A DNA stretch of 64,000 nucleotides from Azolla caroliniana. Taxonomy: Eukaryota; Plantae; Polypodiophyta. Both the position numbers and the translations under genes were made by a program. The stretch lies in contig JBHGNT010000002.1 of the NCBI GenBank assembly GCA_043228905.1, forward strand, positions 22,692,001-22,756,000, read 5' to 3'. A model generated the notes under the pieces. That model searched no databases and had not been told where the DNA came from. It saw only the letters and a program-made list of their open reading frames with translations. Positions 30,556 to 63,299 of this stretch are shown piece after piece (position 1 is the stretch's first letter; each line of letters starts with the position of its first letter).

Positions 30556-30577
30556 TGGGTAAAATAATATTAAATAA

Positions 30578-36079: not shown

Positions 36080-38209
36080 ATGAGGGGATCGGAGCTAGCA
36101 GAGGCAATGGCGGTGGCCTCGACCGGTTGATGAGCGCTCATGAGGGAACGGGTACCCTCGACAGAGCCATTGAATCGATCGTCGGCTCTATAGGCCGTTG
36201 CGGAGGGAAAGACGCCACAAGTTATTTGGAGGCTTACCGGGCCGAAATGATCATGAGGGATATCCCGGTGGACAGGCGGCTGTCCGGATTCCCTCGGGTG
36301 GTGACGCCGGGCATCCATGCGGAGGTGCTCGAGGTGCTGGCCGGATGCCAGACTTGGGAGGAGTTCGAGCTACAGCTCCTCGAGAAGTACGGGTTTGACG
36401 ACTCGCTCCGACTGTCGAGGCGGGACTTCATGGCGTGGGTGGAAAGCCCCGGAAAAGGGAGGAACACGTCGGTGCTCCTCCAGGAGTTCGAGAAACGGTT
36501 CCCGCGGCTGTCAACGTTGGACTGGACGGTGCTCGAAACGAGTCGAGTGCTGCTATTTGTCAAGTCGGTGGATGCGCTCGACAGGGAAAAGGTGGGTCCC
36601 CTGCTGGAAACGGACGAAGGGCTCACGACGGATTGGGTCGTGGTAAAACGGGTCTACAGCCGTTTCGACAAACGGCGCGATTGGGGCGACGGAAGCACGT
36701 CGGGGTCAGGGCCGGTCCCGGGGAGGAGGCTCGAAGAGCCGGTTTTAGTGCTGGCTGGGAGGAAGGAAGAGACCCGAATCTGGTCGGAGTCGGGGTCGGC
36801 ATCGAATGACGTGGTCAGAGGCCCGTCCGGAGGAGTGGCTCTGGAGGAGCTAACACAGATGGTGCGCGACCTGCAGATCGCACAGGCCCGAAGAGACAGC
36901 GGTGAACAACCTTGCGACCGGAGGCCGCCGACTGGGCAACGGTGCATGTGGTGTGACGCGATTGGTCACATTCGGAAGGATTGCGTGGACTTCGCCGACG
37001 CGCTCAGGACCAACGTGGTGTATCTCTGGAACGGGCGGGTGCATGCGAGTGAGACCCGGAGAGCCCTTGAACTGAATACGGGGCGTGACGGCATGAAGAG
37101 GTTGATGGAAGAGGCCGCGGCACGGCACGTCGAAGCCGTTAACTACTCAGTGTCGGCGAGAATTCGGGTCGGGGGTGATGAGACCCGGAAGGCGAAGGAC
37201 TCCGAATTCTGGCCACTAGTGCTGGAAAGCCTCTCCGGAGTTCGGCTGAGGAGGGAAGAGGCAGACCGCGCGGAACAACGGGTCCAGGAGGTCACCGGTT
37301 GGGACGATCCGGTGGAAGAGAAAACGGGCTTCGTAGAAGCCACTTGCCAAAACTACGAGGTTCTAGTGGAGGAAAAACGGGCAGGAAAGGCTAGAGGGGT
37401 CGACCCCCCGAGGTATGAGACCCGGTTCGGATCAAAACCGACCGGTGCCGGCAACCCAGGCGTGCCGGATGGGAAGAAGCAGGCGGGGTTTCGGTTGAGC
37501 ACCGAAATCGAGTGAGCAACGGACCTACGGAAGGTCCTTGAAGAGCGAATCCTCGACAGTAAAGTGGAGCTGTCGTTGCGGGAGGTGTGGGGATCGCCAA
37601 GAGGGAGTTCCACGACTCTATCGTAGACTTGGTGAAGCGTAAGAGGCTCTCGACGGAGCTGGAACCGGAGAAGCCGGTGGAGGTGTGGACCACGCACCTG
37701 GAAGACGAAGCCTTGGAAGACGAGCTGGCGAGAAGCCACTACACGAAGTCGCATTGGCCAGGGCGACTACGGAAACCCCCGTACGGATCGGCAACGTTCT
37801 GGAACTGGTGGTGGCGTTGGTAGACCATGGATCCGAAATCAACCTGATGTCCATGGAGTTCTACAAGAAGGGTAAATGGCCGATCAACACCAAGCACGAC
37901 TAGAAGATACGAGGAGCGACGCACGCCACGGAAGAACTACATGGGGCCTGTTCGAACGTACGGGTGAAAATCGGCGATGTCGAGATCGACCAACACTTCT
38001 TTGTGCAGGAGACGTCCTCGCATCCGGTTATACTAGGAGAGCCATATATCACGGCGGCACGGATGGAGACCAAGGTGCTGGACAACGGTTCAACCTATGC
38101 AAGAGTCAAAAGCCAGGACGAGCGCCACTCGGTTCAGTTCCTAACGGTGAGACCAAACCACGAGTGTAACCGCGAGGCCCTCGGTAGCGAAGCCCGAGGG
38201 GATTTTTAG
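36080..38209 (+). pseudogene. Copy B Gag-zinc knuckle-protease ORF1, disrupted
   Basis: Collinear with intact ORF 47518-49641; CMWCDAIGHIRKDC; ALVDHGSEIN; 1-bp deletion near 36117, stop at 37513-37515, further frameshifts. Confidence 0.92.
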
Positions 38210-38692
38210 AGAGGGCTATCAAGGCGTGGGGTCGTGATAGTCCGGACTCCCGGGAACAACCCCACAGTACGGAAGAAGACTTGTACCATGGGTAGGAAGT
38301 TTTGGTTCTCCGGCAACGGAGGTTGTACTATAACCAGCGTCAGCGGCCGGGAGAGGAAGCGAGCGGAGGAGCAGCTCAAATGGATGCAGAGTCCTCTTCC
38401 CCGACGAATGTTAGGAATTGACTCTTTCCAAAACCTTCCCCTCTCGGCCACAACCGAGGAAACACGAATCAATGCAGCAGAAAATCGAAAACACAGAGAG
38501 AGACTCGAATGCACAGGATTTAGCGTGGAAAACCCTAGACGGGAAAAACCACGGGTGTCATAACTAGACTCGAACCCATAACCTTTTGTTACACGGGTCG
38601 AGACTTTACCATTAGGTTATGAATTGTAATTTGAAGGATATTATTTTCATTTAGGTTTTATTGGGAAATTGATGTATATTCCAGATTTCTCT

Positions 38693-38738
38693 GGAACATT
38701 CTAGAAACTTCAGGAGTATTCCTGAAGACACTATAAAA
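38693..38738 (+). promoter_or_regulatory. HSE-like array plus TATA box in the Chromo-2 5' LTR
   Basis: GAAcaTTCtaGAAacTTCagGAGtaTTCctGAA followed by TATAAAA at 38732. Confidence 0.65.
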
Positions 38739-38845
38739 GGAGGCGCAAGGCATTAGTTCGAACCAAATCGGTTCAACGCCAGTCTTAAGCCTTCTAACTA
38801 CTGTTGTATATCTTCCGTCATATAATACATATATCTTTCGCATCA

Positions 38846-38887
<42 letters not shown>

Positions 38888-39108
38888 ACTCATTCCTTCT
38901 CTCAAAGTTCGACACCTCTCATAGTACTAATCCTTCTCTGTCTTAGTACTATTCCCCAACAATAGTACTAATCCTTCTTTTAGTACTAATTCCTTCTCTG
39001 CCTTAATAGAGTTCCTGACAGTTTGAACCGATTTTGACTACTAGTCTCCCTCTTCCTTCTGTCTCCCTCCTTTCCTACTAGTCTCTTATTTCCCTTTTCC
39101 TTCATCCC

Positions 39109-43159: not shown

Positions 43160-43566
43160 TGTGGAGATATTACGCAAGTGCGTGTGGAATCGAGGCGGGA
43201 CCGCGGGGGTCTCGAACCAAAGAGCAAGCGAGGGAGGAGAAAGAGAGAGAACCGGCTACGCAGGACCGGGGATACACAGGGACACGGCCCTTCAGCACGG
43301 AGAACGCGAACAGACACCGACACAGACAGATGCGAACGACTAAATATGTATATTAACAAAATTGCTAACACGATTACAACCCTCGATGGGGCACAGGTTG
43401 GTTACAACCGAACAGGCCGGCGAACAGATGCCGATGCCTGTTCGCTTCGACGCACAAACGGGGTAGCAGGTCGGAGGTGCTGCCGGAAGCACTCGGGCGT
43501 TCCTCGAAACAGCGCGAGCCTCCTCGGAACCCTGCACAGAAGCTATGGAGCTCGAGAAGGAAGGAG

Positions 43567-43601
<35 letters not shown>

Positions 43602-44038
43602 CTCCCAGAAACGGTCCGGCAGCACTTCGTCCTCTCCGCGCGTCGAGATCCCTGCAACAGCTCTTTCCCGCTCCTTATATAGGCCGACGAGCAGGCCGTC
43701 GTGTCAGCTTTATTCCCTGTCCCTTTTGGACAGGGATCCGCTCCGTTTTTCACGCATCCGCGTAGTTACGCCGCCGACTCGTACAGTTCGCGCGCGCGAC
43801 CGAAAAGACTGTTCGCGCGGTCTTTGTCTCCACGCGAGTTAGGGCCCGTTCTTGCCGATTATCCTCCTAATTCGCTTCTATGTACAACTTGGAGCGTGCG
43901 CGCGTGAAGAACCGGTTCCCACGCCTTGGTGCGCCGATTCCGCCTATGGACGGTTTTCTTCACGACATCCGCCCCCACCTAACCGCGCATCCTCCGGTAT
44001 GCGCCAAGAGAGTTGGGACGGAGAAAACCGGCCCGTCT

Positions 44039-47000
44039 TCATTCCTCGCCCGTCGGTTCTTCCTCGTTCTCGGATCGTTCGTCACTGCCGACCAGGAGAG
44101 CCGGGTCCGGCTCATCGTCATGTCGCTTCTTGAACGCTTTGATCCGCTTCCCTGCAACCGGTATCGCCACTCTCGTGCCGTCAAGTTCCGCCAGGTGATA
44201 TGTCCCGTTGTCATTGGCGCTCCGTACCACGTAGGGCCCAAACCACCTTCGTGCGAACTTCCGTGTGGCTCGGTGCTGGTTGTCGAGGCTGCTGTCGTAG
44301 ACGAGCACCCAGTCACCTTCTTCGATCTTCTTTGGTCGGAGCCGGTGCGTTCGGTCGAACCTGGCTTTGTTCTTTGCTCTCGCCACCCGGAGCCTCTCCG
44401 TAGCCAGTTCCACGTCCTCCGGTCTCCGCTCGAGCTGTCGTATGCGCGCGGCCAACAACTCCTCCCGGCTCATCTCGTCCCGCCAGGCGACCGTTGCCCA
44501 CGAGGAGATCGTCCGTTCCATCGGCATGACCGGCTTCTGGCCGAACATGAGCTCCGTCGGCATGTACCCGGTTACCGAACTGTGCGTGGTCCGGTCTGCC
44601 CACAAAGCATAAGGTAGCAGCCGCGGCCAGTTACCGACTTGGCCTCCGCATGCCCGAACCAACGCCTTGACGATCGGCCCGTGTCCGCGCTCCACCTTCC
44701 CATTCGCCTCCGGATTGTACGCAGTGGTGAGCGAGAGCTTGACTCCCAGCCGGTCGAACAGCTCCGCGGCTTCTTCGGCGTCCAACTCCCCTCGGTCAGC
44801 CACGATCTTCCCGACGCACCCGTACCGGCATATCACGTCCTCGATCAGGAACCGACACACGGCCTCGGTCGTCTTGTTCTGAAGGGCTCGGCCTTCCACC
44901 TGGTTCGTCAGGTCTTCCCGCGCTAGGACCAGATACCGCATCTGTCCTACCCCCATCGGCATCGTCACTAGATCTACCATCCATTTGAAGTGGATAGTCG
45001 GAGGGTACGTAGGGCGAAGCCCGTCCCGGTGTCGGACCATCGAGTGCATCTGACAACTCTCGCAAGTTGACACGAACCGATGCACGTCCCGGTACAATCC
45101 CGGCCACCAGTACTTCCCCTTCAGCTTCTCAAATGTCGCCCACGTTCCACGGTGTCCAGCCCAAGGGCTGTCATGGTAGGCCGCCAGTAGCTCCTCCTGT
45201 TCTTCCTTCATCGCCACCACCCGGAGCGGGACGCCGTTCCTCTTCTTCGGGTGCTTCCACAAATGCCCATCTCGGAGAAAGAATCGATATGCTTTCTTCC
45301 GGATCCGGTTGGCCTCGTCCTTCGTCCATGACGCATCGGGCGTCATTGTCTTCAAAAACCCGCCGATCTGCAGCCACTCCCCGTCGTACTTGCTCGCGTC
45401 GAACTCGTTAAGCGCCGGAGTGCTCATCCCGTCGGTCGTTATGTATGCCGCCTCGAAGAAATCCACGCCGACTTCTTCGTCTTCCGAAACCATGCCGCCC
45501 TCGTCGTCGAACCTCGCCCTCGAAAGCATGTCGGCCATGGCGTTGTCTTTCCCGGAAATGTGTCGTATTTCCGGGTCCAGGGACTTGATGTACGCTATCC
45601 ACCTGAGCATCGCCAGGTCCGGAGTCGCGCATCCGGAAACCATACCGAGAATCGGCAGGCAATCCGTCTCGATGATCACTTCTGTCCCTATCAGGTAGTC
45701 TTTGTCGGCCTTAACCGCCGAAACAATACCCCAGAGTTCGCGTTTAACCTGGGCGTATCCTCGCTGTCGTTCGCTGAGGACTTTCGCGCCGAACCGGATC
45801 GGAAACCGATTGCCGTCCTCGTCTTCCTGGTTCACGACCCATCCGATCCCGGTCGGACTGGTATCCACCGTTATGAATACCGGGGTACCCTTCCCGTATA
45901 CCGCCTTCCGGAGTGCCGGTGCCGCTGCAAGGGCCTCTTTCAGCTTCCGGACCGATTCCGCGTGCTCGTCTAGCCATTCGAACCTTCGCCCCTTTTTCAG
46001 CAACCCGTACAGTGGCTCCGCGACGTGTGCGTAATGCGGGATCCATATGTGGTAGAACGCGCATGCCCCCAGGAATCTCCGTACTTCCGTGACCGAGCTG
46101 CAGTCGGGCTTCATCGCGGAGATGGCTTCTACCTTTGCCGGAGACGGTTTCCGGCCATATGGTCCGCACAGGTGCCCGACCACCATGATTTCTGACTGCC
46201 CGAAGGCCGACTTCTCCCCGGAGAAGGTGAGTCTCGCATCCTCTAGCCTTTGCAGCACCTTCTCGCAGTCGTCGATGTGCATTACCACGAATCGCCGGCA
46301 TCCGTCCGGCCCGACCGTCTCGTCCTTCTCTTCTACCGGGCATCCCTTGATCGGGATGTCGTCTAGAAACGGCATGGTGATGTCCGGGATGCAGTCCCTC
46401 AGCACCTTGTTCATTGCATTCACCATGTGGGCCACCGAGTTGGTCCCTCCTTGCGGCAGTGTACACATCCGAACTAGGCCGAGGGGAGTTCGCATCGTCG
46501 TAATGTCTCTGCTCTCCACGGCTAGCTGGAACTGGTCGTACCCTGAGTATAGATCCCCGACCAAGTAAATTGACCTCCCGGCGAAGGCCTCCGCGAACTC
46601 GTCTATGGTCGGTCCGATCCCTGCGTTCCGAATGGTCACTCGATTGACCGGCTGCAGGTCCTGGATGAAGCGCAACGAACCGTTTTTCTTCGGTACGGTA
46701 AACCATCGATTCGAATATGGGGCGCTCGACGGCTCGAGAATTCCCATATCAACTTTCTGCCTCAGCAGCTCCATCAACTTCGGGATGTGAGCTCTCGGAA
46801 CCGAAATTGCCTTGAGATTCCACGGTACATGCGGTACCGTGAATATCACCATCGGCTCTACGATCGTCGGGTCCACGCACCCGATTTCCTCCGGCGAGAA
46901 TGCGAAGGCTTTCCCGTGCCTTCCGAGCATTCTCCGGAACCGGTCTTCCTCCGCCGGCAATAGGAACCCGCCCCCACCGATCTTCAGCTCGCGGAGCGTC

Positions 47001-47527
47001 TCGTTGGTGAAGGTGTGTCCTATGCAGGCCGGATCTCGTAAGCTGGGGTCCGATGCAACCCCTTTGATTCGGGACTCGCTGCCCTCCGGTAAGGGTGCCG
47101 CGACTGGCCTCACCTTCCGATCCACGGTCTTGTACTTGGTGCTCACTCGGGCCGTCTGTTCCGACTCGAGCCCTCGACCGAAGTCCGCGATGACCTCGTA
47201 CATTTCCTCTGAACATACCGGTATCGTCCGGTCTTCGTTAAAGTCTTCTTCGACTACCTCCCCCAGCATTCCCAAGGTGTCGTCGAAGGAGACTGCCTCC
47301 ACGGCTCCGATGATTCCTTCGTCAGGGCCGAGAACTCCGCACGCCCGAAGTCTCCCCTCCGTCTTTGTTTTCTCTCGGCCGGTGATGCCGACCATCGTAC
47401 ATGCTCCGCTGTCGGAGAAGCAAAATTTCCTACCTATTGTACACGGTTTTATCGTACAGATGTGGGGTTTTCCCGGAGCATCCGGACTGTCGCGGCCCCA
47501 CGCCTTGGCAGTCCTCTCTAAAAATCC
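44039..47527 (-). CDS. pol: Copy C ORF2: RT, RNase H, integrase with GPY motif, no chromodomain; entered by predicted -1 frameshift
   Basis: Open from the slippery site to 44039; YKTVDRKVRPV, LPQGGTNS, PFLDD, VDTSPTG, H..H..CESC, VDLV/ADRGE/VERGH, WFGPY. Confidence 0.93.
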   Translation of the reverse strand, partial: GFLERTAKAWGRDSPDAPGKPHICTIKPCTIGRKFCFSDSGACTMVGITGREKTKTEGRLRACGVLGPDEGIIGAVEAVSFDDTLGMLGEVVEEDFNEDRTIPVCSEEMYEVIADFGRGLESEQTARVSTKYKTVDRKVRPVAAPLPEGSESRIKGVASDPSLRDPACIGHTFTNETLRELKIGGGGFLLPAEEDRFRRMLGRHGKAFAFSPEEIGCVDPTIVEPMVIFTVPHVPWNLKAISVPRAHIPKLMELLRQKVDMGILEPSSAPYSNRWFTVPKKNGSLRFIQDLQPVNRVTIRNAGIGPTIDEFAEAFAGRSIYLVGDLYSGYDQFQLAVESRDITTMRTPLGLVRMCTLPQGGTNSVAHMVNAMNKVLRDCIPDITMPFLDDIPIKGCPVEEKDETVGPDGCRRFVVMHIDDCEKVLQRLEDARLTFSGEKSAFGQSEIMVVGHLCGPYGRKPSPAKVEAISAMKPDCSSVTEVRRFLGACAFYHIWIPHYAHVAEPLYGLLKKGRRFEWLDEHAESVRKLKEALAAAPALRKAVYGKGTPVFITVDTSPTGIGWVVNQEDEDGNRFPIRFGAKVLSERQRGYAQVKRELWGIVSAVKADKDYLIGTEVIIETDCLPILGMVSGCATPDLAMLRWIAYIKSLDPEIRHISGKDNAMADMLSRARFDDEGGMVSEDEEVGVDFFEAAYITTDGMSTPALNEFDASKYDGEWLQIGGFLKTMTPDASWTKDEANRIRKKAYRFFLRDGHLWKHPKKRNGVPLRVVAMKEEQEELLAAYHDSPWAGHRGTWATFEKLKGKYWWPGLYRDVHRFVSTCESCQMHSMVRHRDGLRPTYPPTIHFKWMVDLVTMPMGVGQMRYLVLAREDLTNQVEGRALQNKTTEAVCRFLIEDVICRYGCVGKIVADRGELDAEEAAELFDRLGVKLSLTTAYNPEANGKVERGHGPIVKALVRACGGQVGNWPRLLPYALWADRTTHSSVTGYMPTELMFGQKPVMPMERTISSWATVAWRDEMSREELLAARIRQLERRPEDVELATERLRVARAKNKARFDRTHRLRPKKIEEGDWVLVYDSSLDNQHRATRKFARRWFGPYVVRSANDNGTYHLAELDGTRVAIPVAGKRIKAFKKRHDDEPDPALLVGSDERSENEEEPTGEE

Positions 47528-49641
47528 TCTCGGTTTTCGGAACCGAGGGAATCGCGGTTACGTTCGTGGTTCGGCCTTACCGTCAGAAACTGGACCGAAT
47601 GGCGCCCGTCTTGGCTTTTGACCCTCGCGTAGGCCGAACCATTGTCCAGCACTTTGGTCTCCATTCGCGCCGCCGTGATGTACGGCTCTCCCAGAATGAC
47701 CGGATGCGAAGACGTCTCCTGCACGAAGAAATGCTGGTCAATCTCGACGTCGCCGATCTTGACTCGCACATTCGGACAGGCCCCGTGCAGTTCCTCGGTG
47801 GCGCGCGTTGCCGCCCTTATTTTCCACCCGTGCTTGGTGTTGATCGGCCATTTGCCCTTCTTATAGAAGTCCATGGACATCAAATTGATCTCCGATCCGT
47901 GGTCTACCAAAGCTATCACCGGTTCCTGGACATCGCCGATCTTCACCGGGGTTTCCGTGGTCGCTCGGGCCCAGTGCGGTCTCGAATAGTGGCTTTCCGC
48001 CCACTCGTCTCCCAGCGCCATGTCGTCTAGGTGCGTCGTCCGCACTTCCACCGGTCTTTCCGGTTCTGTCTCCGTTGACAGCCTCTTCCGTTTCACCAAG
48101 TCCACGATGGAGTCGTGGAACTCCTTCTTGGCGATTCCCAGCACCTCCCGTAGCGACAGCTCCACCTTGCTGTCGAGGATCCGTTCCTCCAGGACCTTTC
48201 GTAAGTCCGTGGTTCTTTCTATCTCCGTCCCCAGACGGTACCCGCCCTTCTGGGGTTTATCTTGCGTACCGGCCCCGCCTGCTTCGTCCCGTCGTGGCCC
48301 GGACCGGGTCTCGTATCGTTGTGAGGGCCCGGTCGTCCCGGGTTTCCCCACCCGCTTCTCTTCTACCAGAGCCTCGTAGTTCCGGCAATCGGCTTCCACG
48401 AAGCCCGTCTTTTCCTCGACCGGGTCGCTCCACCCGGTCATCTCCCGTACCCGTTTCTCCGCACGGTCCGATTCCTCCCTCTTCATCCTCGTATCGGCAA
48501 GGCCTTCCAGCACCGTCGGCCAGAATCCGGCTTTGCTTCCTCTTCGGGCCTCGTTGCCCCCGACTCGAATACCGGCCGACGCCGAGTAGTGGACGGTTTC
48601 CGCATGTCGGGCCGCCGCCTCTTCCATCAACCTCTTCATTCCGCCTCGCCCGTCGTTTCGGCTCAGGGCCCTTCGGGTGTCGCTGGCATGCACCCGTCCT
48701 TCCCACAGGTACACCACCCTGTCCCTTAGCGCCTCCGCGAAGTCGCCGCAGTCCTTCCGAATGTGGCCGACTTCATCGCACCACATGCACCTGTTTCCTG
48801 CCGCCGGCCGTCGGTCACGAGCCGGTTCGCCACCTTCCCTTCGGGCTTGCGCGATTTGGAGGTCCTTTACCGCCCTCGTCAATTCCTCCAGCGCCGCTCC
48901 TCCGGTCGAGCCTCTGACTACGCCGGTCGAAGCCGAACCGGTTTCCAACCACTCTCCGGTCTCTTCCTTTCGCACCCGTGGCGCTGGTTCGAACTTCCTT
49001 GCTGCGACCGAGCCCGACCCGGTTACCCCGTTATCCACCCATTCTCGCCGTTTGTCGAAACGGCCACAGACTTTCTTGACAGCTGCCCAGTCGGTAGTGA
49101 GCCCGTCTTCGGTTTCCAGCAAGAGGCCCACTTGCTCCCGATCCCGCTCATCGACCGACTTGACAAACAGCAAGACCCGGCTTGTATCCAGGACCATCCT
49201 GTCAAGCGCCGAAAGGCGCGCGAAGTTCTCGAACTCCCGGAGGAGTGCCAACGCATTCCTTCCTTTCCCGGGAGACTCCACCCATTCCATGAACCTTCGC
49301 TTCGAAAGCCGGAGCGCGTCGTCCAGCCCGTATTTCTCTAGGAGCCGACCTTCGAACTCCTCCCAGGTACGGCTCTCCGCCCGCACCTCGAGCACCTCCG
49401 CATGGATGCCCGGCATTGCGACTCGGGGAAATCCGGCAAGACGCCTTTCTTCCGGAATGTCCCGCATCAACATTTCCGCACCGTAGGACGCCAGATACTT
49501 CGTGGCATCCCTCCCATCGAACCGGCCGATCGTGCCGACAACCGCCTCAATAGCTCTGTCGAGGGCACCGGTGCCCTCGCGCGCGTTTACAATCCGATCC
49601 ACGGCCGAAGCCATGGCCTCTGCAAGATCCGACCCCCTCAT
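47518..49641 (-). CDS. gag: Copy C ORF1: Gag + CCHC knuckle + aspartic protease
   Basis: First ATG at 49641 (MRGSDLAEAM); CMWCDEVGHIRKDC; ALVDHGSEIN...VILGEPY; ends GAG GAT TTT TAG. Confidence 0.92.
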   Translation of the reverse strand: MRGSDLAEAMASAVDRIVNAREGTGALDRAIEAVVGTIGRFDGRDATKYLASYGAEMLMRDIPEERRLAGFPRVAMPGIHAEVLEVRAESRTWEEFEGRLLEKYGLDDALRLSKRRFMEWVESPGKGRNALALLREFENFARLSALDRMVLDTSRVLLFVKSVDERDREQVGLLLETEDGLTTDWAAVKKVCGRFDKRREWVDNGVTGSGSVAARKFEPAPRVRKEETGEWLETGSASTGVVRGSTGGAALEELTRAVKDLQIAQARREGGEPARDRRPAAGNRCMWCDEVGHIRKDCGDFAEALRDRVVYLWEGRVHASDTRRALSRNDGRGGMKRLMEEAAARHAETVHYSASAGIRVGGNEARRGSKAGFWPTVLEGLADTRMKREESDRAEKRVREMTGWSDPVEEKTGFVEADCRNYEALVEEKRVGKPGTTGPSQRYETRSGPRRDEAGGAGTQDKPQKGGYRLGTEIERTTDLRKVLEERILDSKVELSLREVLGIAKKEFHDSIVDLVKRKRLSTETEPERPVEVRTTHLDDMALGDEWAESHYSRPHWARATTETPVKIGDVQEPVIALVDHGSEINLMSMDFYKKGKWPINTKHGWKIRAATRATEELHGACPNVRVKIGDVEIDQHFFVQETSSHPVILGEPYITAARMETKVLDNGSAYARVKSQDGRHSVQFLTVRPNHERNRDSLGSENREDF

Positions 49642-49663
49642 CTTCTGCTCTTCTGCCGCCTCT

Positions 49664-49681
49664 TTCACGTCGGGTTCACCA
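49664..49681 (-). other. Primer-binding site complementary to the 3' 18 nt of plant cytosolic tRNA-Trp
   Basis: TGGTGAACCCGACGTGAA, 4 nt after the LTR; tRNA-Trp 3' end recalled as ...TTCACGTCGGGTTCACCA. Confidence 0.85.
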
Positions 49682-50092
49682 AAGATGTGGAGATATTACG
49701 CAAGTGCGTGTGGAATCGAGGCGGGACCGCGGGGGTCTCGAACCAAAGAGCAAGCGAGGGAGGAGAAAGAGAGAGAACCGGCTACGCAGGACCGGGGATA
49801 CACAGGGACACGGCCCTTCAGCACGGAGAACGCGAACAGACACCGACACAGACAGATGCGAACGACTAAATATGTATATTAACAAAATTGCTAACACGAT
49901 TACAACCCTCGATGGGGCACAGGTTGGTTACAACCGAACAGGCCGGCGAACAGATGCCGATGCCTGTTCGCTTCGACGCACAAACGGGGTAGCAGGTCGG
50001 AGGTGCTGCCGGAAGCACTCGGGCGTTCCTCGAAACAGCGCGAGCCTCCTCGGAACCCTGCACAGAAGCTATGGAGCTCGAGAAGGAAGGAG

Positions 50093-50127
<35 letters not shown>

Positions 50128-50493
50128 CTCCCAGAAACGGTCCGGCAGCACTTCGTCCTCTCCGCGCGTCGAGATCCCTGCAACAGCTCTTTCCCGCTCC
50201 TTATATAGGCCGACGAGCAGGCCGTCGTGTCAGCTTTATTCCCTGTCCCTTTTGGACAGGGATCCGCCCCGTTTTTCACGCATCCGCGTAGTTACGCCGC
50301 CGACTCGTACAGTTCGCGCGCGCGACCGAAAAGACTGTTCGCGCGGTCTTTGTCTCCACGCGAGTTAGGGCCCGTTCTTGCCGATTATCCTCCTAATTCG
50401 CTTCTATGTACAACTTGGAGCGTGCGCGCGTGAAGAACCGGTTCCCACGCCTTGGTGCGCCGATTCCGCCTATGGACGGTTTTCTTCACGACA

Positions 50494-51200
50494 ACGCTAT
50501 CCACGCATCGACTAAAGTCACGCCATTCTACGCTTATACGGGATATCATCCCCGGTGGTGTGTCCTTGAAACCCCAGAAGTGTCCACAAATCCTTGCGCG
50601 GAGGATCGTTTGGAGCGGTTACGCAAGATACAAGCGGATTTATCTACTCAACTCCAGCAAGCTCAACAATCACACAAGGACTACGCAGATCGTCATCGAC
50701 TTCCATCCAGTTTTAACATTGGAGATCGGGTGTGGCTGCTACGACGACACATCAAGACTACTCGCCCATGTGAGAAGTTGGATTATCGGCGATTAGGTCC
50801 TTTCCGTATTATCGGGAAGATTAATGATGTCACTTTTCGTCTCGAGCTACCTCCGCAACTTCGGATACACCCGGTGTTTCATAGTTCTCTCCTCGAACCC
50901 TATCACGAGAGCACTATCCCAGGACGTACTATACAACCTCCACCTCCTATCGAGCTCGAAGATGGACCTGAGTATGAGGTCGCTGCCATCCTCGATTCCA
51001 AGATTGTTCGCAACAAGCTCTACTATCTAGTCGATTGGCTAGGATATAGTCCCAGCGAGCGTACTTGGGAACCGATCGAGAATGTGACCAATGCTCGTGC
51101 TCTTCTAGAAGACTTCCATCGACGATATCCCGAGAAACCGGGTCCTCAATCCAAAACGACTCGTGAAACTCGTCGTTTTAAAGGGGGGATAGTGTCATAA
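50494..51200 (+). CDS. pol: Chromo-2 Pol, 3' part (INT C-terminus, GPF, group-I chromodomain); stop lies inside the 3' LTR
   Basis: Same frame as the 5' part; LGPFRI, IHPVFHSSLL, YEVAAILDSK...YLVDWLGY...TWEP. Confidence 0.93.
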
Positions 51201-51482
51201 CTAGACTCGAACCCATAACCTTTTGTTACACGGGTCGAGACTTTACCATTAGGTTATGAATTGTAATTTGAAGGATAATATTTTCATTTAGGTTTTATTG
51301 GGAAATTGATGTATATTCCAGATTTCTCTGGAACATTCTAGAAACTTCAGGAGTATTCCTGAAGACACTATAAAAGGAGGCGCAAGGCATTAGTTCGAAC
51401 CAAATCGGTTCAACGCCAGTCTTAAGCCTTCTAACTACTGTTGTATATCTTCCGTCATATAATACATATATCTTTCGCATCA

Positions 51483-51522
<40 letters not shown>

Positions 51523-52305
51523 ACTCATTCCTTCTCTCAAAGTTCGACACCTCTCATAGTACTAATCCTTCTCTGTCTTAGTACTATTCCCCAACAATAG
51601 TACTAATCCTTCTTTTAGTACTAATTCCTTCTCTGCCTTAATAGAGTTCCTGACAACGGGAGTGCAAGACTCCAACTATCACTATACGCAGGGAATGTAC
51701 AATGGCGAGCTGCAAGGCGACGACCTTGAGCTCGCTGTCCTCGCCACAGGCGGCGGTATTACACAGAGGCGTCGACCTCTTCCTTTCTCTCTCTCTCTCT
51801 CTCACTCTCTCTAAGTGGAAAACAAAAAAATGAGCAACCACTACAAAACTGTTTGCCCTAAGTCATATTTATACACATATGACTTTCGGGCTATTTACAA
51901 ATATAGCCTCAAGAGCCCTTGGCAAACATATTCACAAATATGTCCCCGCATCCGGATCTCTCTCCGGGTACATTCGTCATCCGGCTCCGTAGCCGGGGTC
52001 TTCATCATCCGGATTCGGAACCGGGTCTTCATCATCCGGCTCCGATACCGGGTACTCCTCATTCGGGTCTTCATTCCCGATTCCCAGACATCCGACCATC
52101 CCATCCGGAGGGACCGTAATCCCAACAAACTCCCCCTTCACTTCGGCATGGGATGTCTTTTCAGTCCGACCCTCTTCCGGCACGCTTCCAGCTTGTCGGG
52201 TGTGAGCACTTTGGTCAGCATATCCGACCCGTTCTCGTCCGTGTGGATCTTCGTCAGCACGAACTCCTGGTCTTCTATCCTTTCCCGGATCCAGTGATAT
52301 CTTCG

Positions 52306-55300
52306 CTAGATGTGCTTCGTCCGGGAGTGATAGGCCGCGTTCTGCGCAAGGTGGATGGCACTCTGACTGTCGCAGTAGAGTCGGTACTCCTCCTGCCGGA
52401 TACCGAGCTCTCTAATGAAGTCCTTCATCCATATTATTTCCTTGCCGGCTTCAACAGCCGCCATGTACTCCGCCTCCGTGGTTGACAACGCAACCGTCTT
52501 CTGCAGCCTCGACTGCCACGAAACAGCTCCCCCTGCATACGTCATCACATACCCTGATGTGGACCGGCTGGTATCTGCATCAGCCGACATATCTGAATCG
52601 GTAAAGCCGTCGAGTTCGGGCTTACCGGAGCCGAATTGGAGGCACACGTTTGTCGTGCCCTTCAGGTATCGGAGTATCCACTTGGCCGCGTTCCAGTGCT
52701 CTTTGCCGGGATTGCTCATGTATCGGTTCACCACTCCAACTGCATATCCTATGTCCGGTCTTGTACACACCATTGCGTACATCAAGCTTCCGACGGCAGA
52801 GGCATATGGTACTTTCATCATGTCCTCCTTCTCAGCCTTTGTCTTGGGGCTTTGCTTGCTGGACAACTTGCAGTTTGCCGGGAGGGTTGACCCGACCGGT
52901 CTTGCTTCCGACATGTTGAACCGGTGAAGCACCTTTGTCACGTACTTCTCCTGTGACAGCCACAACTGCTTCTTCTTCCGGTCCCGGATGATGTGCATCC
53001 CTAGTATTTGCCTCGCCGGACCCAGGTCCTTCATTGAGAAGGTTCGGTGAAGCGCTTTCTTCAGCATCCGTATCTTGACTTGGTCCCGTCCGACGATCAA
53101 CATGTCGTCCATGTACAGGAGGAGTATTAGAAAGTCTCCTCCTTCGAACTTCTTCACAAACACGCAGTGATCGGACTGCGTTTTGTGGTACCCTTCGTCG
53201 GTCATGAAAGAGTCGAACTTCCGGTACCATTGCCGGGGAGCCTGCTTCAGTCCGTAAAGGCTCTTCTTCAACCGGCATACCAGGTGCTCCTTCCCTTTCT
53301 TCTCGAATCCTTCCGGTTGCTGCATGTAGATCTCTTCTTCGAGGTCACCGTGAAGGAATGCCGTCTTCACGTCCATCTGTTCTACCTCGAGGTCCATGCT
53401 TGCCGCTATGCTCAGCACCGTCCGGATGGAGGTCATCTTCACTACCGGGGCAAATATCTTGTCGAAGTCGACGCCCTTCTTCTGCTGAAACCCCTTCACC
53501 ACGATCCTGGCTTTGTATCTCGGGGGGTTTCCGGCATCTCCCGGTTTCAGCTTGAACACCCACTTGTTTCGAAGTGCCCGCTTTCCTTTCGGCAACTCCA
53601 CAAGTTCATATGTGTGGTTCTCATGCAGGGAATCCATCTCCTCCTGCATGGCACTTAACCACTTGCGGCTATGGGTGTCAAGCTTTGCTTCTTCAAAACT
53701 CTCCGGCTCCCCTTCGTCGGTTAGCAGCACATGCTCTGGTTCCGGAAATCTCCGGGGGGCCCTTCTCTCTCTTAGAGGATATCTCCGTTCCGGAGATTCG
53801 GTAACCGGCTCCTCCGTTTCCTCTTCATCCGAATCCATTTCGGGATCGGGGCCGGTTCCGGTATCAGTTTCATCTTCCTCGGCCGGTTCTGTTTCTTCAC
53901 CGTCTTCGGCCGGATCCTCGAGTGCTAACCGGTCCCTTGCCGGTCGGGACTGCTCCTCGTAGAGTTGATCCTCACCGGTCGACTTGGAGCTCTTCATCTT
54001 CTTCTCCGACTCCCAGTCGGCGAGTGTCTTGTCCTCCATGAAGATGATATCACGACTTCGGAATATCTTTTTGTCGACCGGGTCCCATACTCGGTAGCCG
54101 AACTCGTCATCGCCGTAATCGAGGAATATGCATGGCCGGGTCTTTGGATCTAGCTTTCCTCTCCGGTCCTTTGCCACATGCACATATACGAGACACCCGA
54201 ACACCTTCAGATGCCGGTAGGATACTTCCCTACCGGTCCACACTCTCTGCGGCGTGTCTCCATCCAAAGGTACTGAGGGTGATCTGTTTATCACGTATGT
54301 CGCCGTCGACATTGCCTCAGCCCAAAACCCCTTGGGTAATTTCGCATGCGCCAGCATACTCCGGACCCTCTCCATTATGGTCCGGTTCATCCTCTCGGCC
54401 AACCCGTTCAGTTTCGGCGTCTTCGGCACAGTAAACTCGAGCCGGATTCCCTTCGAGCGACAATACTCCTTGAACTGCCCCCGGTATTCCCCTCCGTTAT
54501 CCGCTCGTATCGCTTTCAGCTTCTTGCCGGATTCCCTTTCCACTCTCGCGTAGAGTTCTTTGAAGACGCACAACACTTGGTCCTTTGTCTTCAACGGTGC
54601 CGTCCACAACTTCCGACTATGGTCATCAATGAATGTCACGAAGTACTGGGCTCCGCCATGTGACTTCGTTTCTACTTGACACACGTCAGTGTGTACCAAC
54701 TCCAATGGTGTGCTACGTCTCGTCGGTGGCCTTGAGTGGAAGGAGGTTCGGTTCTGCTTACCGGCCAGGCAATCGGTGCACTTCTCCAGGTGCACATGCT
54801 TCACTGGAATAAGGTTGTCTTCTGCAAGCCTCTTCATCCCCTTCTCACTCATGTGGCACAGTCTCTTGTGCCACAGCTCACCGGCAGTGTCGGCTGCCAC
54901 GTTCAACTCCTCCGGACACAACCAGGCATTCATAAGGTATAGTGTGTTGACTTTCCGGGCCCGAGCCACTATCAGGCTCCCCTTGCTGAACTTCATTACG
55001 TCGTTCCGGATGCTACCTGTGTAGCCTTCATCGTCTAGCCTCCCGGCCGAAATCAGGTTCAATCGAACCTCCGGAACGTGTCGGACATCCTTCAGCAACA
55101 TTTTGCATCCGGTCGAGGTTGTCAACCACACGTCTCCTATGCCGGCAATCCGGCACGTACCTTCATTTCCCATCCGAACACAGCCATGCTCACCGGCTGT
55201 GTAGGATGAGAAGTATCTTCTTTCCGGGGTCAGGTGGAACGACGCTCCGGAATCGACCACCCAGGTAGTCTCATCGCCGACAATGTTTAGTTCACCTTCT

Positions 55301-56211
55301 TCGGTGATGAGCATGATCTCCTCTTCACTTGCCGCGAGTGCCGTCGTTCCTTTCCGGTCCTGCTCTCGCCGATCCGAACCATTCCGGTCCGTGGCTCCCC
55401 GGTAAGCACCGTTCCGTTCCGAAGACTTCTTCGAATCGGTGTTGTCGGCTCCGTTGTCTTTTCGGTAATGCCGACAATTCTTTCGGAAGTGCCCCGGCTT
55501 CCCACAGTGGAAGCATGTGGGTCTTCCTCTTGACTGCGACCGGGTCCCCGACTTCTCCCGTCTTTGCGGACTCCGGTTCCGTTGTCTTCCCCGATCCGAT
55601 TCGGTAAGCAGCATCTTCGGATCGGAGGCCGGTTCTTTATCTCTCTGACGCGCTTCTTCGTTCAAAATGCTTGTCTTTACCGTTTGTAGGGACAAGTTAT
55701 CTTCGGTGCAGGAGGTGCTGTGAGTCACCACCAAGTTCTCCCAGCTTGCCGGCAATGTACACATCAGGATGATGGCTTGTATTGCATCCTCCAACGGGAA
55801 CTTGATCGCCGCAAGCTGGTTCACGAATCCCATGAACGTGCTTACGTGTTCCACCATACTCTCGCCGTCCCGGTACTTGAGGTTCACTATCTTCCTCATC
55901 AGGGAGGTCCGGTTCAACGCATTCTTCCTCTCGTAGAGGCCCGACAGCTTCTGCCACATCTCATATGCGTTGGTGTCGTTCGCCACATGTTGTAGAACGC
56001 TCACGTCGACGTATTGCCGAATGGTTGCAACGGCTTTCCGGTTCAGAAGCCTCCATTCCGTCTCAAGTACCCCCTTGGGTATTTCCGACCTGTCGATCGG
56101 TTCATACAGGTCCCGAACAATGAGCAGATCCTCCATCTTTATCTTCCAATCGGCGTAGTTCTGCGCATTCAGCACTATCATCCCCGGCTGCCCGCTGTTG
56201 CCGCCTTCCAT
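52306..56211 (-). CDS. Copia-2 Gag-Pol polyprotein; TAG after SRTKHI, frame stays open to 52138
   Basis: Single ~1300-aa ORF: CFHCGKPGHFRKNC, WVVDSGAS, VHTDV, DNGGEY, YMDD, TDSD, YCDSQSA; ATG at 56211. Confidence 0.95.
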   Translation of the reverse strand: MEGGNSGQPGMIVLNAQNYADWKIKMEDLLIVRDLYEPIDRSEIPKGVLETEWRLLNRKAVATIRQYVDVSVLQHVANDTNAYEMWQKLSGLYERKNALNRTSLMRKIVNLKYRDGESMVEHVSTFMGFVNQLAAIKFPLEDAIQAIILMCTLPASWENLVVTHSTSCTEDNLSLQTVKTSILNEEARQRDKEPASDPKMLLTESDRGRQRNRSPQRREKSGTRSQSRGRPTCFHCGKPGHFRKNCRHYRKDNGADNTDSKKSSERNGAYRGATDRNGSDRREQDRKGTTALAASEEEIMLITEEGELNIVGDETTWVVDSGASFHLTPERRYFSSYTAGEHGCVRMGNEGTCRIAGIGDVWLTTSTGCKMLLKDVRHVPEVRLNLISAGRLDDEGYTGSIRNDVMKFSKGSLIVARARKVNTLYLMNAWLCPEELNVAADTAGELWHKRLCHMSEKGMKRLAEDNLIPVKHVHLEKCTDCLAGKQNRTSFHSRPPTRRSTPLELVHTDVCQVETKSHGGAQYFVTFIDDHSRKLWTAPLKTKDQVLCVFKELYARVERESGKKLKAIRADNGGEYRGQFKEYCRSKGIRLEFTVPKTPKLNGLAERMNRTIMERVRSMLAHAKLPKGFWAEAMSTATYVINRSPSVPLDGDTPQRVWTGREVSYRHLKVFGCLVYVHVAKDRRGKLDPKTRPCIFLDYGDDEFGYRVWDPVDKKIFRSRDIIFMEDKTLADWESEKKMKSSKSTGEDQLYEEQSRPARDRLALEDPAEDGEETEPAEEDETDTGTGPDPEMDSDEEETEEPVTESPERRYPLRERRAPRRFPEPEHVLLTDEGEPESFEEAKLDTHSRKWLSAMQEEMDSLHENHTYELVELPKGKRALRNKWVFKLKPGDAGNPPRYKARIVVKGFQQKKGVDFDKIFAPVVKMTSIRTVLSIAASMDLEVEQMDVKTAFLHGDLEEEIYMQQPEGFEKKGKEHLVCRLKKSLYGLKQAPRQWYRKFDSFMTDEGYHKTQSDHCVFVKKFEGGDFLILLLYMDDMLIVGRDQVKIRMLKKALHRTFSMKDLGPARQILGMHIIRDRKKKQLWLSQEKYVTKVLHRFNMSEARPVGSTLPANCKLSSKQSPKTKAEKEDMMKVPYASAVGSLMYAMVCTRPDIGYAVGVVNRYMSNPGKEHWNAAKWILRYLKGTTNVCLQFGSGKPELDGFTDSDMSADADTSRSTSGYVMTYAGGAVSWQSRLQKTVALSTTEAEYMAAVEAGKEIIWMKDFIRELGIRQEEYRLYCDSQSAIHLAQNAAYHSRTKHI

Positions 56212-56704
56212 TTTCTGCACTGCAGTCGCTCTGATACCAGATTGTTAGGAATTGACTCTTTCCAAAACCTTCCCCTCTCGGCCACAACCGAGGAAACACG
56301 AATCAATGCAGCAGAAAATCGAAAACACAGAGAGAGACTCGAGTGCACAGGATTTAGCGTGGAAAACCCTAAACGGGAAAAACCACGGGAGTGCAAGACT
56401 CCAACTATCACTATACGCAGGGAATGTACAATGGCGAGCTGCAAGGCGACGACCTTGAGCTCGCTGTCCTCGCCACAGGCGGCGGTATTACATAGAGGCG
56501 TCGACCTCTTCCTTTCTCTCTCTCTCTCTCTCACTCTCTCTAAGTGGAAAACAGAAAAATGAGCAACCACTACAAAACTGTTTGCCCTAAGTCATATTTA
56601 TACACATATGACTTTCGGGCTATTTACAAATATAGCCTCAAGAGCCCTTGGCAAACATATTCACAAATATGTCCCCGCATCCGGATCTCTCTCCGGGTAC
56701 ATTC

Positions 56705-60918: not shown

Positions 60919-63299
60919 TCTTTGGTGAACCGGACGTGAACAAGGCGGCAAAGGAGTCGAAAGATGAGGGGATCGGAGCTAGCAGAGGCAATGGCGGTGG
61001 CCTCGACCGGTTGATGAGCGCTCATGAGGGAACGGGTACCCTCGACAGAGCCATTGAATCGATCGTCGGCTCTATAGGCCGTTGCGGAGGGAAAGACGCC
61101 ACAAGTTATTTGGAGGCTTACCGGGCCGAAATGATCATGAGGGATATCCAGGTGGATAGGCAGCTGTCCCGATTCCCTCAGGTGGTGACGCCGAGCATCC
61201 ACACGGAGGTGCTCGAGGTGTTGACCGGGTGCCAGACTTGGGAGGAGTTCGAGCTGCAGTTCCTCGAGAAGTACGAGTTTGACGACTCGCTTCGGCTGTC
61301 GAGGCGGGACTTCATGGCGTGGGTGGAAAGCCCCGGAAAAGGGAGGAACACGTCGGCGCTCCTCTAGGAGTTTGAAAAACGGTTCGCGCGGCTATCGACG
61401 TTGGACCGGACCGTGCTCGAAACGAGTCGAGTACTACTGTTTGTCAAGTCGGTGGACGCGCTCGACAGGGAAAAGGTGCGTCCCCTATTGGAAATGGACG
61501 AAGGGCTCACCGAAGACTAGGCCGTGGTAAAACGGGTCTGTAGCCGTTTCGACAAACGACGCGATTGGAGCAATGAAAGCTCGTCGGGGTCAGGGCTGGT
61601 CCTGGCGAGGATGCTCGAGGAGCCGGTATTGGTGCCAGCCGGTAGGAAGGAAGAGACACAAATTTGGTTGGAGTCGGGGTCGGCATCGAACGACGTGGTC
61701 AAAGGCCCTTCCGGAGGAGTGGCTCTGGAGGAGCTGACACAGATGGTGCGTGACCTGTAGATCGCACAGGCACGAAGAGACAGCGACGAACAACCTCGCG
61801 ACTGAAGGCCACCGGCTGGGCAGCGGTGCATGTGGTGTGACGTGATCGGTCACATTCGGAAGGATTGCGTGAATTTCGTCGATGCGCTCAGGACCAACGT
61901 GGTGTACCTCTGGAATGGGCGGGTGCACGCGAGCGAGACCCAGACAACCCTAAAACTAAATACGGGGTGCAGCGGAATGAAGAGGTTGATTGAAGAGGCC
62001 GCGACACGGCATGTAGAAGCCGTTAACTACTCAGTGTCGGCGGGAATTCGGGTTGGGGGTGATGAGACCCGGAAGGTGAAGGACTCCGGATTCTGGCCGC
62101 TAGTGCTGGAAGGCCTCTCCGGAGTTCGGCTGAAGAAGGAAGAGGCGGACCGCGCGGAACAACGGGTCCAGGAGGTCACCGAATGGTACGATCCGGTCGA
62201 AGAGAAAACGGGCTTCGTAGAAGCCACTTTCCAGAACTACGAGGCTCTGGTTGAAGACAAACGGGCAGGAAAGGCCAGGTGCGTCGGTCCCCCGCAGAGG
62301 TACGAGACCTGGTTCGGACCGAAACCGATCGGTGCCGGCAACCCAGGCGCGCCGGACGGGAAGAAGCAGGTGGGGTTTCGGTTTAGCATCGAAATTGAGA
62401 CAACAACGGACCTACGGAAGGTCCTTGAAGAGCGGATCCTCGACAATAAAGTGGAGCTGTCGTTGTGGGAGGTGCTGGGAATCGCCAAGAGGGAGTTCCA
62501 CGACTCCATTGTAGACTTGGTGAAGCGGAAGAGGCTCTCGACGGAGACCCTTGTGAGGATCGACGACGTTCCGGAACCGGTGGTGGCCTTGGTAGACCAT
62601 GGATCCGAAATCAACCTGATGTCCATAGATTTCTACAAGAGGGGTAAATGGCCGATCAACACCAAGCATGGGTGGAAGATATGCGCGGCAACGTGTGCTA
62701 CGGAGGAGCTGCATGGTGCGTGCCTGAATATACACGTAAAGGTCGGTGACGTCGAGATAGATAAACATTTCTTCGTGCAGGAAAAATCGTCGCACCCGGT
62801 GATTCTCGGCGAACCATACATTACGGCAGCACGCATGGAGACAAAGGTGTTGGATAACGGTTCGGCGTACGCGCGTGTCAAGAGCCAAGATGGTCAACAT
62901 TCCGTCCAAATCATGACCGTATGTCCGAACCATGAGAGGGATCGCGAGACCCTTAGCGGCGACAACCGAGGGGATTTTTAGAGGGGGCTATCAAGGCGTG
63001 GGGCCGCGGTAGTCCGGACGTACCGGAAGAACCCCACACATGTACAGTAGGTAGGAAGTTTTGGTTCTCCGAAAACGGAGGTTGTACTATAGCCGGCGTC
63101 AGCGGCCGGGAGAGGAAGCGTGCGGAGGAGCGGCTCAGGGGATGCAGAGTCCTCTCCCCCGACGAAGAAATCAGCGGCGCCGTGGAGGCAGTCTCTTTTG
63201 ACGACACTTTGGGCGAGTTGCGAAAGGTGATCGGTGAAGACCTTAGAGAAGACCGGACCGTTTCGTTTAGTTTGATGGGAATGTACGAAGTCATCACGG
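60919..63299 (+). pseudogene. GC-Gypsy copy D: PBS (60923-60940), disrupted gag-protease and pol start, directly after the second LTR of copy B
   Basis: TGGTGAACCGGACGTGAA; ORF pieces 60936-61367, 61524-61760, 61830-62981; frameshift cassette 62972-63037. Confidence 0.9.

What the first reader, a model, noticed from the sequence alone, without database searches (positions are those of the whole stretch)
47462..47527. -1 frameshift placed after the protease, with a covarying H-type pseudoknot in three copies
Seen: ORF1 (Gag+protease) ends G GAT TTT TAG and RT-RH-INT is open in the -1 frame. After a 6-nt spacer, stem 1 is GGACTG/CAGTCC in copy C, GGGCTATC/GATAGTCC in copy B (38200-38265) and GGGCTATC/GGTAGTCC in copy D (62972-63037): one G-C to A-U compensatory change plus wobble changes. 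Loop GTGGGG pairs with an invariant downstream CCCCAC. A competing CCGG...CCGG hairpin overlaps the end of stem 1 in all three. Known: GGAUUUU is the dianthovirus slippery site; Gag-PR/Pol frameshifting is the avian alpharetrovirus layout, whereas Gypsy elements typically shift before PR. Inference: protease made equimolar with Gag, possibly under a structural switch.
Basis: partly seen in the sequence, partly recalled or inferred. Interest (0 to 1): 0.8.

Follow-up and report, generated by a model that had tools for sequence, protein, structure and literature searches.

The report
Moss retrotransposon slips ribosomes after protease
An abundant moss-type jumping gene ends its coat-plus-protease gene with a slippery sequence followed by an RNA knot that related families keep through matched base changes, so ribosomes likely step back one base there to make the copying enzymes, and one recently active branch with the slip site one base closer to the knot would have to reach them by another route, likely a two-base step back.

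Summary
Confirmed and extended. Copy C (43160-50493, minus strand) is a young, intact Ty3/gypsy element with Phygy features (4-bp NCGN target duplication, tRNA-Trp primer site). ORF1 is Gag plus a retropepsin-fold protease and ends G_GAU_UUU_UAG; RT-RH-INT is in the -1 frame. The signal is lineage-wide: 3,619 pattern matches in the host genome versus 0 control, Pol in -1 in 64 of 71 scorable metagenome loci, and both stems of an H-type pseudoknot covary across 36 non-redundant junctions. Own-AUG translation is disfavoured, and no splice joint was seen in shallow RNA-seq. The proposed CCGG switch hairpin occurs in only 7 of 36 junctions and is not supported. Protease-in-ORF1 is already known in plant Ogre and Retand elements, but not with overlapping frames, and REXdb lists Phygy organisation as not determined. 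New: a derived, recently active clade (about 100 copies here, plus a diverged relative) has AG_GUU_UUU only 5 nt before the same pseudoknot. Its -1 frame is usually closed at once and Pol lies in the +1/-2 frame: a candidate natural switch to pseudoknot-driven -2 frameshifting. Nothing has been measured.

The parts
43160..50493 (-). Copy C: intact Phygy-type Ty3/gypsy LTR retrotransposon, 7,334 bp, TG...CA, target duplication GCGT
49686..50493 (-). 5' LTR (808 bp, one difference from the 3' LTR)
49665..49681 (-). Primer binding site: 17 nt complementary to the 3' end of a host tRNA-Trp(CCA) including the CCA, 4 nt after the LTR
47518..49641 (-). ORF1 from first ATG, 707 aa: Gag (CCHC knuckle, DUF4100) plus protease; ends REDF-stop
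47689..47949 (-). Retropepsin-fold aspartic protease with D-H-G at the catalytic-motif position
47521..47527 (-). Slippery heptamer G_GAU_UUU in the ORF1 frame
47515..47520 (-). 6-nt spacer UAGAGA, beginning with the ORF1 stop codon
47503..47514 (-). Pseudoknot stem 1, 5' arm (8-bp core at 47514-47507, looser upper part)
47496..47501 (-). Pseudoknot stem 2, 5' strand GUGGGG (in the hairpin loop)
47484..47495 (-). Pseudoknot stem 1, 3' arm
47472..47486 (-). CCGG...CCGG alternative hairpin overlapping the end of stem 1; subfamily-specific, not a conserved switch
47462..47467 (-). Pseudoknot stem 2, 3' strand CCCCAC, after a 16-nt loop
44039..47557 (-). ORF2 in the -1 frame: about 130-aa variable leader, RT, RNase H, integrase; no protease or chromodomain hit
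43160..43967 (-). 3' LTR, preceded by a purine-rich tract
38200..38265 (+). Copy B junction (same signal). Its ORF1 at about 36034-38209 carries two frame breaks and its Pol is interrupted at about 38408 by nested elements
62972..63037 (+). Copy D junction (same signal). ORF1 at about 60915-62981; Pol match ends at about 63298

Best explanation
This Phygy-type retrotransposon carries Gag and protease in one frame and RT-RNase H-integrase in the -1 frame, joined by a conserved G_GAU_UUU site and a covarying pseudoknot, so most ribosomes likely stop after the protease while a minority likely slip back one base to make the full Gag-PR-RT-RH-INT polyprotein. Shown: the frames, the site, the 6-nt spacer, covariation of both stems, no conserved Pol-frame AUG. 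Inferred: that the pseudoknot (stem 1 of 8-12 bp, about 1-nt first loop, 5-6-bp stem 2, 11-16-nt last loop) stalls the ribosome with GAU/UUU in the P/A sites; that the protease is therefore made one-to-one with Gag; that the adjacent stop codon matters as in pea enation mosaic virus. In a derived clade the ORF1 frame meets the same pseudoknot one base later (AG_GUU_UUU, 5-nt spacer) and Pol sits in the +1/-2 frame; there a -2 slip is the most likely route (about 55%, separate from the confidence below).
For: Host genome: slip + spacer + stem-1 arm + purine-loop pattern has 3,619 matches versus 0 for the reversed control. 89 of 90 nearest copies show the site and 84 of 89 keep GGATTTT. 20 of 20 fetched C-family copies stop ORF1 right after the site; 14 of 20 have a 1,159-1,162-codon -1 frame. 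Proteins: 69 of 121 ORF1 homologs end in D/G/N-F-stop (64 DF) and 24 more have D/G-F plus 1-5 residues, including Riccia and Physcomitrium entries. Metagenome loci: Pol in -1 in 64 of 71 scorable (80 fetched); 69 of 74 sites are GGATTTY, with an immediate stop of any of the three kinds in 67 of 74. Stem 1: 96.2% paired, 6 of 8 pairs with two-sided change, 0/500 shuffles, slid controls 23-46%. Stem 2: own partner beats swapped partners in 0/100,000 permutations for all 36 and for 20 clade representatives; two-sided changes at columns 27-30 and 32. The -1 frame is open from the site to the first conserved Pol motif in 30 of 34, the first Met is scattered over codons 3-111, and there is no Pol-frame AUG in the 30 nt upstream in 0 of 33. 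G_GAU_UUU is a known plant-virus shift site (PMC5009743 passages).
Against: No frameshifting was measured. The 76-nt region of copy C does not fold better than shuffles (z -0.29), and its stem 1 has mismatches. The upper part of stem 1 is only 58% paired; 5 of 36 junctions have only 4 of 6 stem-2 pairs in the fixed geometry. 7 of 71 scorable loci gave another frame; apart from L146 I took these for broken copies but did not examine each. Shuffle controls do not remove relatedness, and most metagenome contigs share one accession series, so host breadth is limited. The protease hit is weak in Pfam (E 0.007, below cut-off) and its D-H-G motif departs from D-[ST]-G.
Confidence: 0.88

Rival explanations
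1. Frameshifting occurs, but only the stem-1 hairpin stimulates it and the loop-to-CCCC pairing is incidental.
For: Stem 1 is the most stable and best conserved element. GGGG/CCCC is low-complexity, so swapped partners also pair well (mean score 13.7 versus 15.8).
Against: Matched changes in separate clades, e.g. GCAGGGA/UCCUUGC, GCGAGA/UCUCGC, ACAGGG/CCCUGU, CAAGG/CCUUG, GGGGCU/AGCCCC. Control windows 20 and 40 nt further on score about 9.
Confidence: 0.05
2. Pol is made from a spliced RNA, as in Ogre, or from its own AUG, and the junction RNA serves another purpose.
For: [quoted passage not shown] TTTTTAG resembles a splice acceptor in the window's copies.
Against: No fixed AG after the U-run in families with TAA or TGA. 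First Met is not conserved and the frame opens just upstream of the site (median 6.5 codons). No joints among 193, 128 and 360 poly(A) reads of a related organism; this is weak, because depth is low, strands are mixed and DNA carry-over is not excluded.
Confidence: 0.05
3. The CCGG...CCGG hairpin is a regulatory switch that tunes frameshifting.
For: Present in C, B and D and four close relatives; predicted about -7 kcal/mol (-13 in L103); overlaps three stem-1 pairs.
Against: Absent from 29 of 36 junctions and confined to one clade. Minimum-energy folds keep stem 1 in C, B and D.
Confidence: 0.1
4. For the variant clade only: Pol is reached not by -2 slippage but by reinitiation at a nearby AUG, by splicing into the CAG|G or UAG|G acceptor-like sites, or by a +1 shift.
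For: A Pol-frame AUG lies 16 nt upstream of the site in 44 of 50 host-genome copies and 7 nt upstream in L146. Both AG|G sites are in a usable phase. P-site re-pairing after a -2 slip (GUU onto AGG) is poor.
Against: The AUG positions differ between the two families, and such +1-frame AUGs arise by chance in 10 of 33 ordinary -1 families. The pseudoknot is kept (12-bp stem 1; dS 0.24 over the first 15 Pol codons versus 1.16 overall). The site equals the arterivirus -2 site, and shorter spacers favour -2. A +1 shift at the stop would need stem 1 melted.
Confidence: 0.45

Closest known systems
Phygy lineage, non-chromovirus Ty3/gypsy (REXdb, Neumann et al. 2019, PMC6317226; passages and Additional file 5 read)
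   Same: 4-bp NCGN target duplication, tRNA-Trp primer site, no extra domain found, coding region fills the internal part; Physcomitrium patens proteins are 61-71% identical in the protease region.
   Different: REXdb gives the polyprotein organisation as not determined; here it is GAG-PROT overlapping RT-RH-INT. Copy C (7.3 kb) is slightly below the listed 7.7-10.0 kb.
Ogre and Retand (Tat clade) plant Ty3/gypsy elements (same paper)
   Same: ORF1 ends after the protease, so protease is made with Gag.
   Different: Ogre uses a spacer/intron and Retand a single in-frame stop. [quoted passage not shown]
Avian alpharetroviruses (Rous sarcoma virus) gag/pol -1 frameshift
   Same: -1 shift with a pseudoknot at the end of gag (PMC5009743 passages); protease at the end of Gag and tRNA-Trp primer (both recalled, not from a call).
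   Different: No env; a different slippery site (recalled); a plant Ty3/gypsy element, so convergence rather than kinship.
Umbravirus/dianthovirus G_GAU_UUU signals (PMC5009743 passages)
   Same: Same heptamer type with a nearby stop codon, decoded by plant ribosomes.
   Different: Those viruses use a bulged hairpin paired to an element kilobases away; here the pseudoknot is local, within 66 nt.
Arterivirus nsp2TF -2/-1 frameshift (PMC4937337, PMC7618472; passages)
   Same: For the variant clade: RG_GUU_UUU site, useful product in the -2 frame, -1 frame closed at once by a stop.
   Different: Arteriviruses use an nsp1beta/PCBP protein complex on CCCANCUCC about 10 nt downstream and no RNA structure; the variant has an RNA pseudoknot 5 nt downstream and no such motif in the 70 nt shown.

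Membership tests
Phygy (REXdb) | Ty3/gypsy order GAG-PROT-RT-RH-INT without chromodomain or extra domain | tested here: met
   Pfam at E<=0.01; protease by fold search. An archaeal-type RNase H was not separately modelled.
Phygy (REXdb) | 4-bp target duplication NCGN | tested here: met
   GCGT in copy C; 5 of 6 further copies with both ends resolved, 14 of 20 unresolved
Phygy (REXdb) | tRNA-Trp primer binding site | tested here: met
   17-nt match to a host tRNA-Trp(CCA) 3' end
Phygy (REXdb) | Size 7.7-10.0 kb | tested here: inconclusive
   C family 7.2-7.3 kb; variant family 7.9-8.0 kb; the range comes from one species
Phygy (REXdb) | Placement with REXdb Phygy RT sequences in a tree | not tested
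   Reference sequences not obtained; only P. patens and Riccia database proteins were compared
-1 programmed ribosomal frameshift signal | X_XXY_YYZ-type heptamer in the upstream frame | tested here: met
   G_GAU_UUY in 69 of 74; G_GGU_UUU and G_GUU_UUY variants; G_GA is a recognised exception
-1 programmed ribosomal frameshift signal | 3' structure 5-9 nt downstream | tested here: met
   6-nt spacer with covarying stem 1
-1 programmed ribosomal frameshift signal | Downstream ORF open in -1 from the site, without a conserved start | tested here: met
   30 of 34; 0 of 33 upstream AUG
-1 programmed ribosomal frameshift signal | Measured transframe product | not testable with these tools
   needs reporter assay or mass spectrometry
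H-type pseudoknot | Hairpin loop pairs with a 3' strand, supported by covariation | tested here: met
H-type pseudoknot | Fold confirmed by probing or structure | not testable with these tools
   ViennaRNA does not predict pseudoknots; no SHAPE data
Ogre/Retand expression type | [quoted passage not shown] | tested here: not met
   Frames overlap in -1
Arterivirus-type -2 frameshift (variant clade) | RG_GUU_UUU with the useful ORF in -2 | tested here: met
Arterivirus-type -2 frameshift (variant clade) | CCCANCUCC protein-binding motif instead of RNA structure | tested here: not met
   Pseudoknot present, motif absent by eye in three sequences: works like, not a member

The most novel reading that the evidence does not exclude
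Within one plant retrotransposon lineage, a clade has switched from -1 to -2 programmed frameshifting at the Gag-protease/Pol junction by meeting the same RNA pseudoknot one base later (G_GAU_UUU with a 6-nt spacer became AG_GUU_UUU with a 5-nt spacer). This would be a natural, essential, RNA-pseudoknot-driven -2 frameshift and an evolutionary test of the mRNA-tension model, on top of a Gag-PR/Pol -1 layout not listed for any plant LTR lineage in REXdb.
Probability: 0.5. Interest if true: 0.85.

Novelty: new variant of a known kind. Interest (0 to 1): 0.72.

Why it matters
It fills the 'not determined' expression strategy of the Phygy lineage and shows that plant non-chromovirus Gypsy elements separate Gag-protease from Pol in three ways: intron (Ogre), in-frame stop (Retand) and now, likely, frameshift. 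The 2016 frameshifting review reported only +1-frame plant cases from the 2003 survey. The thousands of copies give a compact 66-nt, naturally varied frameshift cassette for plant ribosomes. The paired -1 and candidate -2 clades would let one test directly whether a one-base change in spacing sets slip direction, so far shown with engineered spacers in the passages I read.

Tried and rejected
Folding the three window copies alone was not discriminating. MAFFT did not align the 3' strand of stem 2 because the last loop varies, so stem 2 was scored by script with partner-swap controls. Viral-contig scan found nothing. PDB sequence search gave one irrelevant hit at E 0.12. No RNA holder was listed for the stretch; small-share runs were laid only to look for joints, and the contig 'skips' were single low-depth records, not used. 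Dropped before the 36-row set: L091 (same as C), L168 (no real junction), L121 (degenerate), L126 (too short), five loci without a site, one without a stop, and near-duplicates above 90% identity. L146 was first treated as an assembly slip; this was rejected after about 100 host copies showed the same register. The P(no stop) figure was not used, since families are related. Gao et al. 2003 and Fang et al. 2012 are not held, so I know them only through reviews. Ten literature searches listed no paper describing this signal in Phygy or a -2 shift in a retrotransposon; subscription journals, Repbase and theses were not searched, and the REXdb per-element table and FASTA supplements were not seen. 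Earlier scan notes gave nothing on this element. No complex prediction was run.

Full report
Observation. Copy C lies on the minus strand at 43160-50493, with 808-bp LTRs differing at one base, a GCGT target duplication and a primer site 4 nt after the LTR. That site matches 17 nt of the 3' end of a host tRNA-Trp(CCA), including the CCA. ORF1 ends REDF-stop. ORF2 holds RT, RNase H and integrase in the -1 frame and gave no protease or chromodomain hit. The last 157 residues of ORF1 gave only weak Pfam protease hits (E 0.007), but the AlphaFold model (pLDDT 84) matches Ddi1 and retroviral proteases (best E 8e-7), and the Atlas neighbours are aspartyl-protease clusters. So the protease is in ORF1. 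Its motif is D-H-G in 112 of 121 homologs; activity is untested.

What it is. Named homologs come from Physcomitrium patens, Riccia sorocarpa and Adiantum. REXdb's Phygy lineage has 4-bp NCGN duplications, tRNA-Trp priming and an undetermined polyprotein organisation (PMC6317226 passages and Additional file 5). Copy C and 5 of 6 further resolved copies have NCGN duplications. I file it as Phygy-type; placement with REXdb references was not tested. The host is inferred to be a moss-like plant from these hits only.

The signal is lineage-wide. A 31-nt pattern (site, spacer, stem-1 arm, purine loop) has 3,619 matches in the host genome against 0 for the reversed control. Of 90 nearest copies, 89 show the site and 84 of those keep GGATTTT. 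Of 121 ORF1 proteins, 69 end in D/G/N-F-stop, 24 have D/G-F plus 1-5 residues, and 28 do not fit, mostly gene models or fragments. Of 80 metagenome loci, 71 could be scored for frame and 64 have Pol in -1. Of 74 sites, 69 are GGATTTY and 67 are followed at once by TAG (29), TAA (27) or TGA (11). Most of these contigs share one accession series, so I count families, not hosts.

The pseudoknot. I aligned 36 non-redundant junctions. The 8-bp core of stem 1 is 96.2% paired, 6 of 8 pairs show two-sided changes, no shuffle of 500 reaches the pairing level, and slid controls give 23-46%. Four further pairs above it are 58% paired with 27 two-sided cells. This suggests a stem 1 of up to 12 bp closing a 7-nt loop, a more classical H-type geometry than the one first drawn. 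Stem 2 was scored by script because the last loop varies from 11 to 16 nt. A loop pairs better with its own 3' strand than with another family's (15.8 versus 13.7; 16.2 versus 13.1 for 20 clade representatives; 0 of 100,000 permutations each), and control windows further on score about 9. In a fixed 6-bp geometry 20 of 36 have all pairs and 31 of 36 at least five (11 of 100,000 permutations). The matched variants fall in separate clades of the protease tree. These controls do not fully remove relatedness. Against the reading: the copy-C region alone folds no better than shuffles.

Rivals for the main signal. The -1 frame is open from the site to the first conserved Pol motif in 30 of 34 families, closes a median 6.5 codons upstream, and the first Met is scattered over codons 3-111. 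No family of 33 has a Pol-frame AUG just upstream. No AG is conserved after the U-run. Three poly(A) runs of a related organism laid 193, 128 and 360 reads on a 3.6-kb stretch with no joint; this is weak evidence, given low depth and mixed strands. The CCGG hairpin occurs in 7 of 36 junctions, all near the window's copies, so a conserved switch is not supported.

A variant clade. One metagenome contig (L146) had Pol in the +1/-2 frame. The host genome has 104 matches to AGGTTTTT-N5-stem-1 arm against 2 control matches. In 20 fetched elements (14 picked for long open Pol frames, 6 not), ORF1 stops 10 nt after the site in all 20 and the -1 frame is closed at once in 19. A 1,153-codon Pol lies in the +1/-2 frame in 10, and 7 have both ORFs whole with 0-3 LTR mismatches. 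The host family and L146 are 74% identical in DNA around the junction, have Pol dN/dS near 0.09, and dS falls from 1.16 to 0.24 over the pseudoknot codons. They form one clade (100/100) nested among -1 families. The site is the arterivirus -2 site, and -2 slips are favoured by spacers 1-2 nt shorter than those best for -1 (PMC4937337 and PMC7618472 passages). Against: a Pol-frame AUG lies upstream in 44 of 50 host copies and in L146, at different positions, though 10 of 33 ordinary families have one in that frame by chance; acceptor-like AG|G sites are also present, and I had no RNA call left to test them. I put -2 at about 55%, reinitiation 20%, splicing 15%, +1 10%.

Comparison and novelty. 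Protease at the end of ORF1 is known in Ogre (spacer/intron) and Retand (stop), but REXdb lists no lineage with GAG-PROT overlapping RT-RH-INT. The 2016 review says the plant elements with separate frames in the 2003 survey were +1, and names G_GAU_UUU for pea enation mosaic virus (PMC5009743 passages). The alpharetrovirus layout and tRNA-Trp primer are recalled, not checked. Ten searches listed no description of this signal; Gao et al. 2003 could not be read. Papers seen: passages of PMC5009743, PMC6317226 (plus one supplement), PMC7466625, PMC12786077, PMC11963269, PMC4937337 and PMC7618472; all others as search listings only.

Verdict. A real, conserved frameshift signal: a new variant of a known kind. 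Confidence in -1 frameshifting with a pseudoknot is 0.88; the switch hairpin is rejected; the candidate -1 to -2 switch is the most surprising lead. Interest 0.72.

Noticed in passing
G000:C8:1484837 (L314), about 100 other host sites, and L146:2498: Variant clade with AG_GUU_UUU, 5-nt spacer, same pseudoknot and Pol in the +1/-2 frame; young intact copies. Not in the window.
   Followed up: yes
window 47902-47904 (minus): Protease motif is D-H-G, not D-[ST]-G, in 112 of 121 homologs; the usual dimer-stabilising Ser/Thr is missing (general knowledge).
   Followed up: partly
L142, L158, L164, L167; P. patens entries such as P0127: In some families ORF1 runs five codons past the slip site, so the stop lies inside stem 1 (e.g. 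...DFGEVPL-stop); the 6-nt spacer is unchanged.
   Followed up: partly
window 35399-63300: Apparent four-level nest: Phygy copy B interrupted at about 38408 by a Copia element (internal 52306-56244, minus), whose LTR holds a second Gypsy element (LTRs 38555-39020 and 51192-51655, 99.4% identical), which holds copy C. B's Pol seems to resume at about 56940, and copy D follows in tandem from the LTR at about 60296.
   Followed up: partly
window 62541-62548: Copy D changes from 92% to 78% identity with copy B here, suggesting a recombinant between subfamilies.
   Followed up: no
window 44039-47557, first 130 codons after the site: A variable leader of 121-156 codons precedes the first conserved Pol motif in all 30 open families; function unknown.
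   Followed up: no
window 30121-31715: Tandem and dispersed repeats of about 76-227 bp in an AT-rich stretch.
   Followed up: no
L251 (G000:C16:5033640-5036661): Three tRNA-Trp(CCA) genes in tandem about 700 bp apart, yet the 22-nt pattern matched only one place with up to one mismatch.
   Followed up: no
G000:C231 (L032, L062): A small contig holds near-identical (98-99%) versions of the B and D junctions only 6.8 kb apart, possibly an allele without the nested insertions.
   Followed up: no
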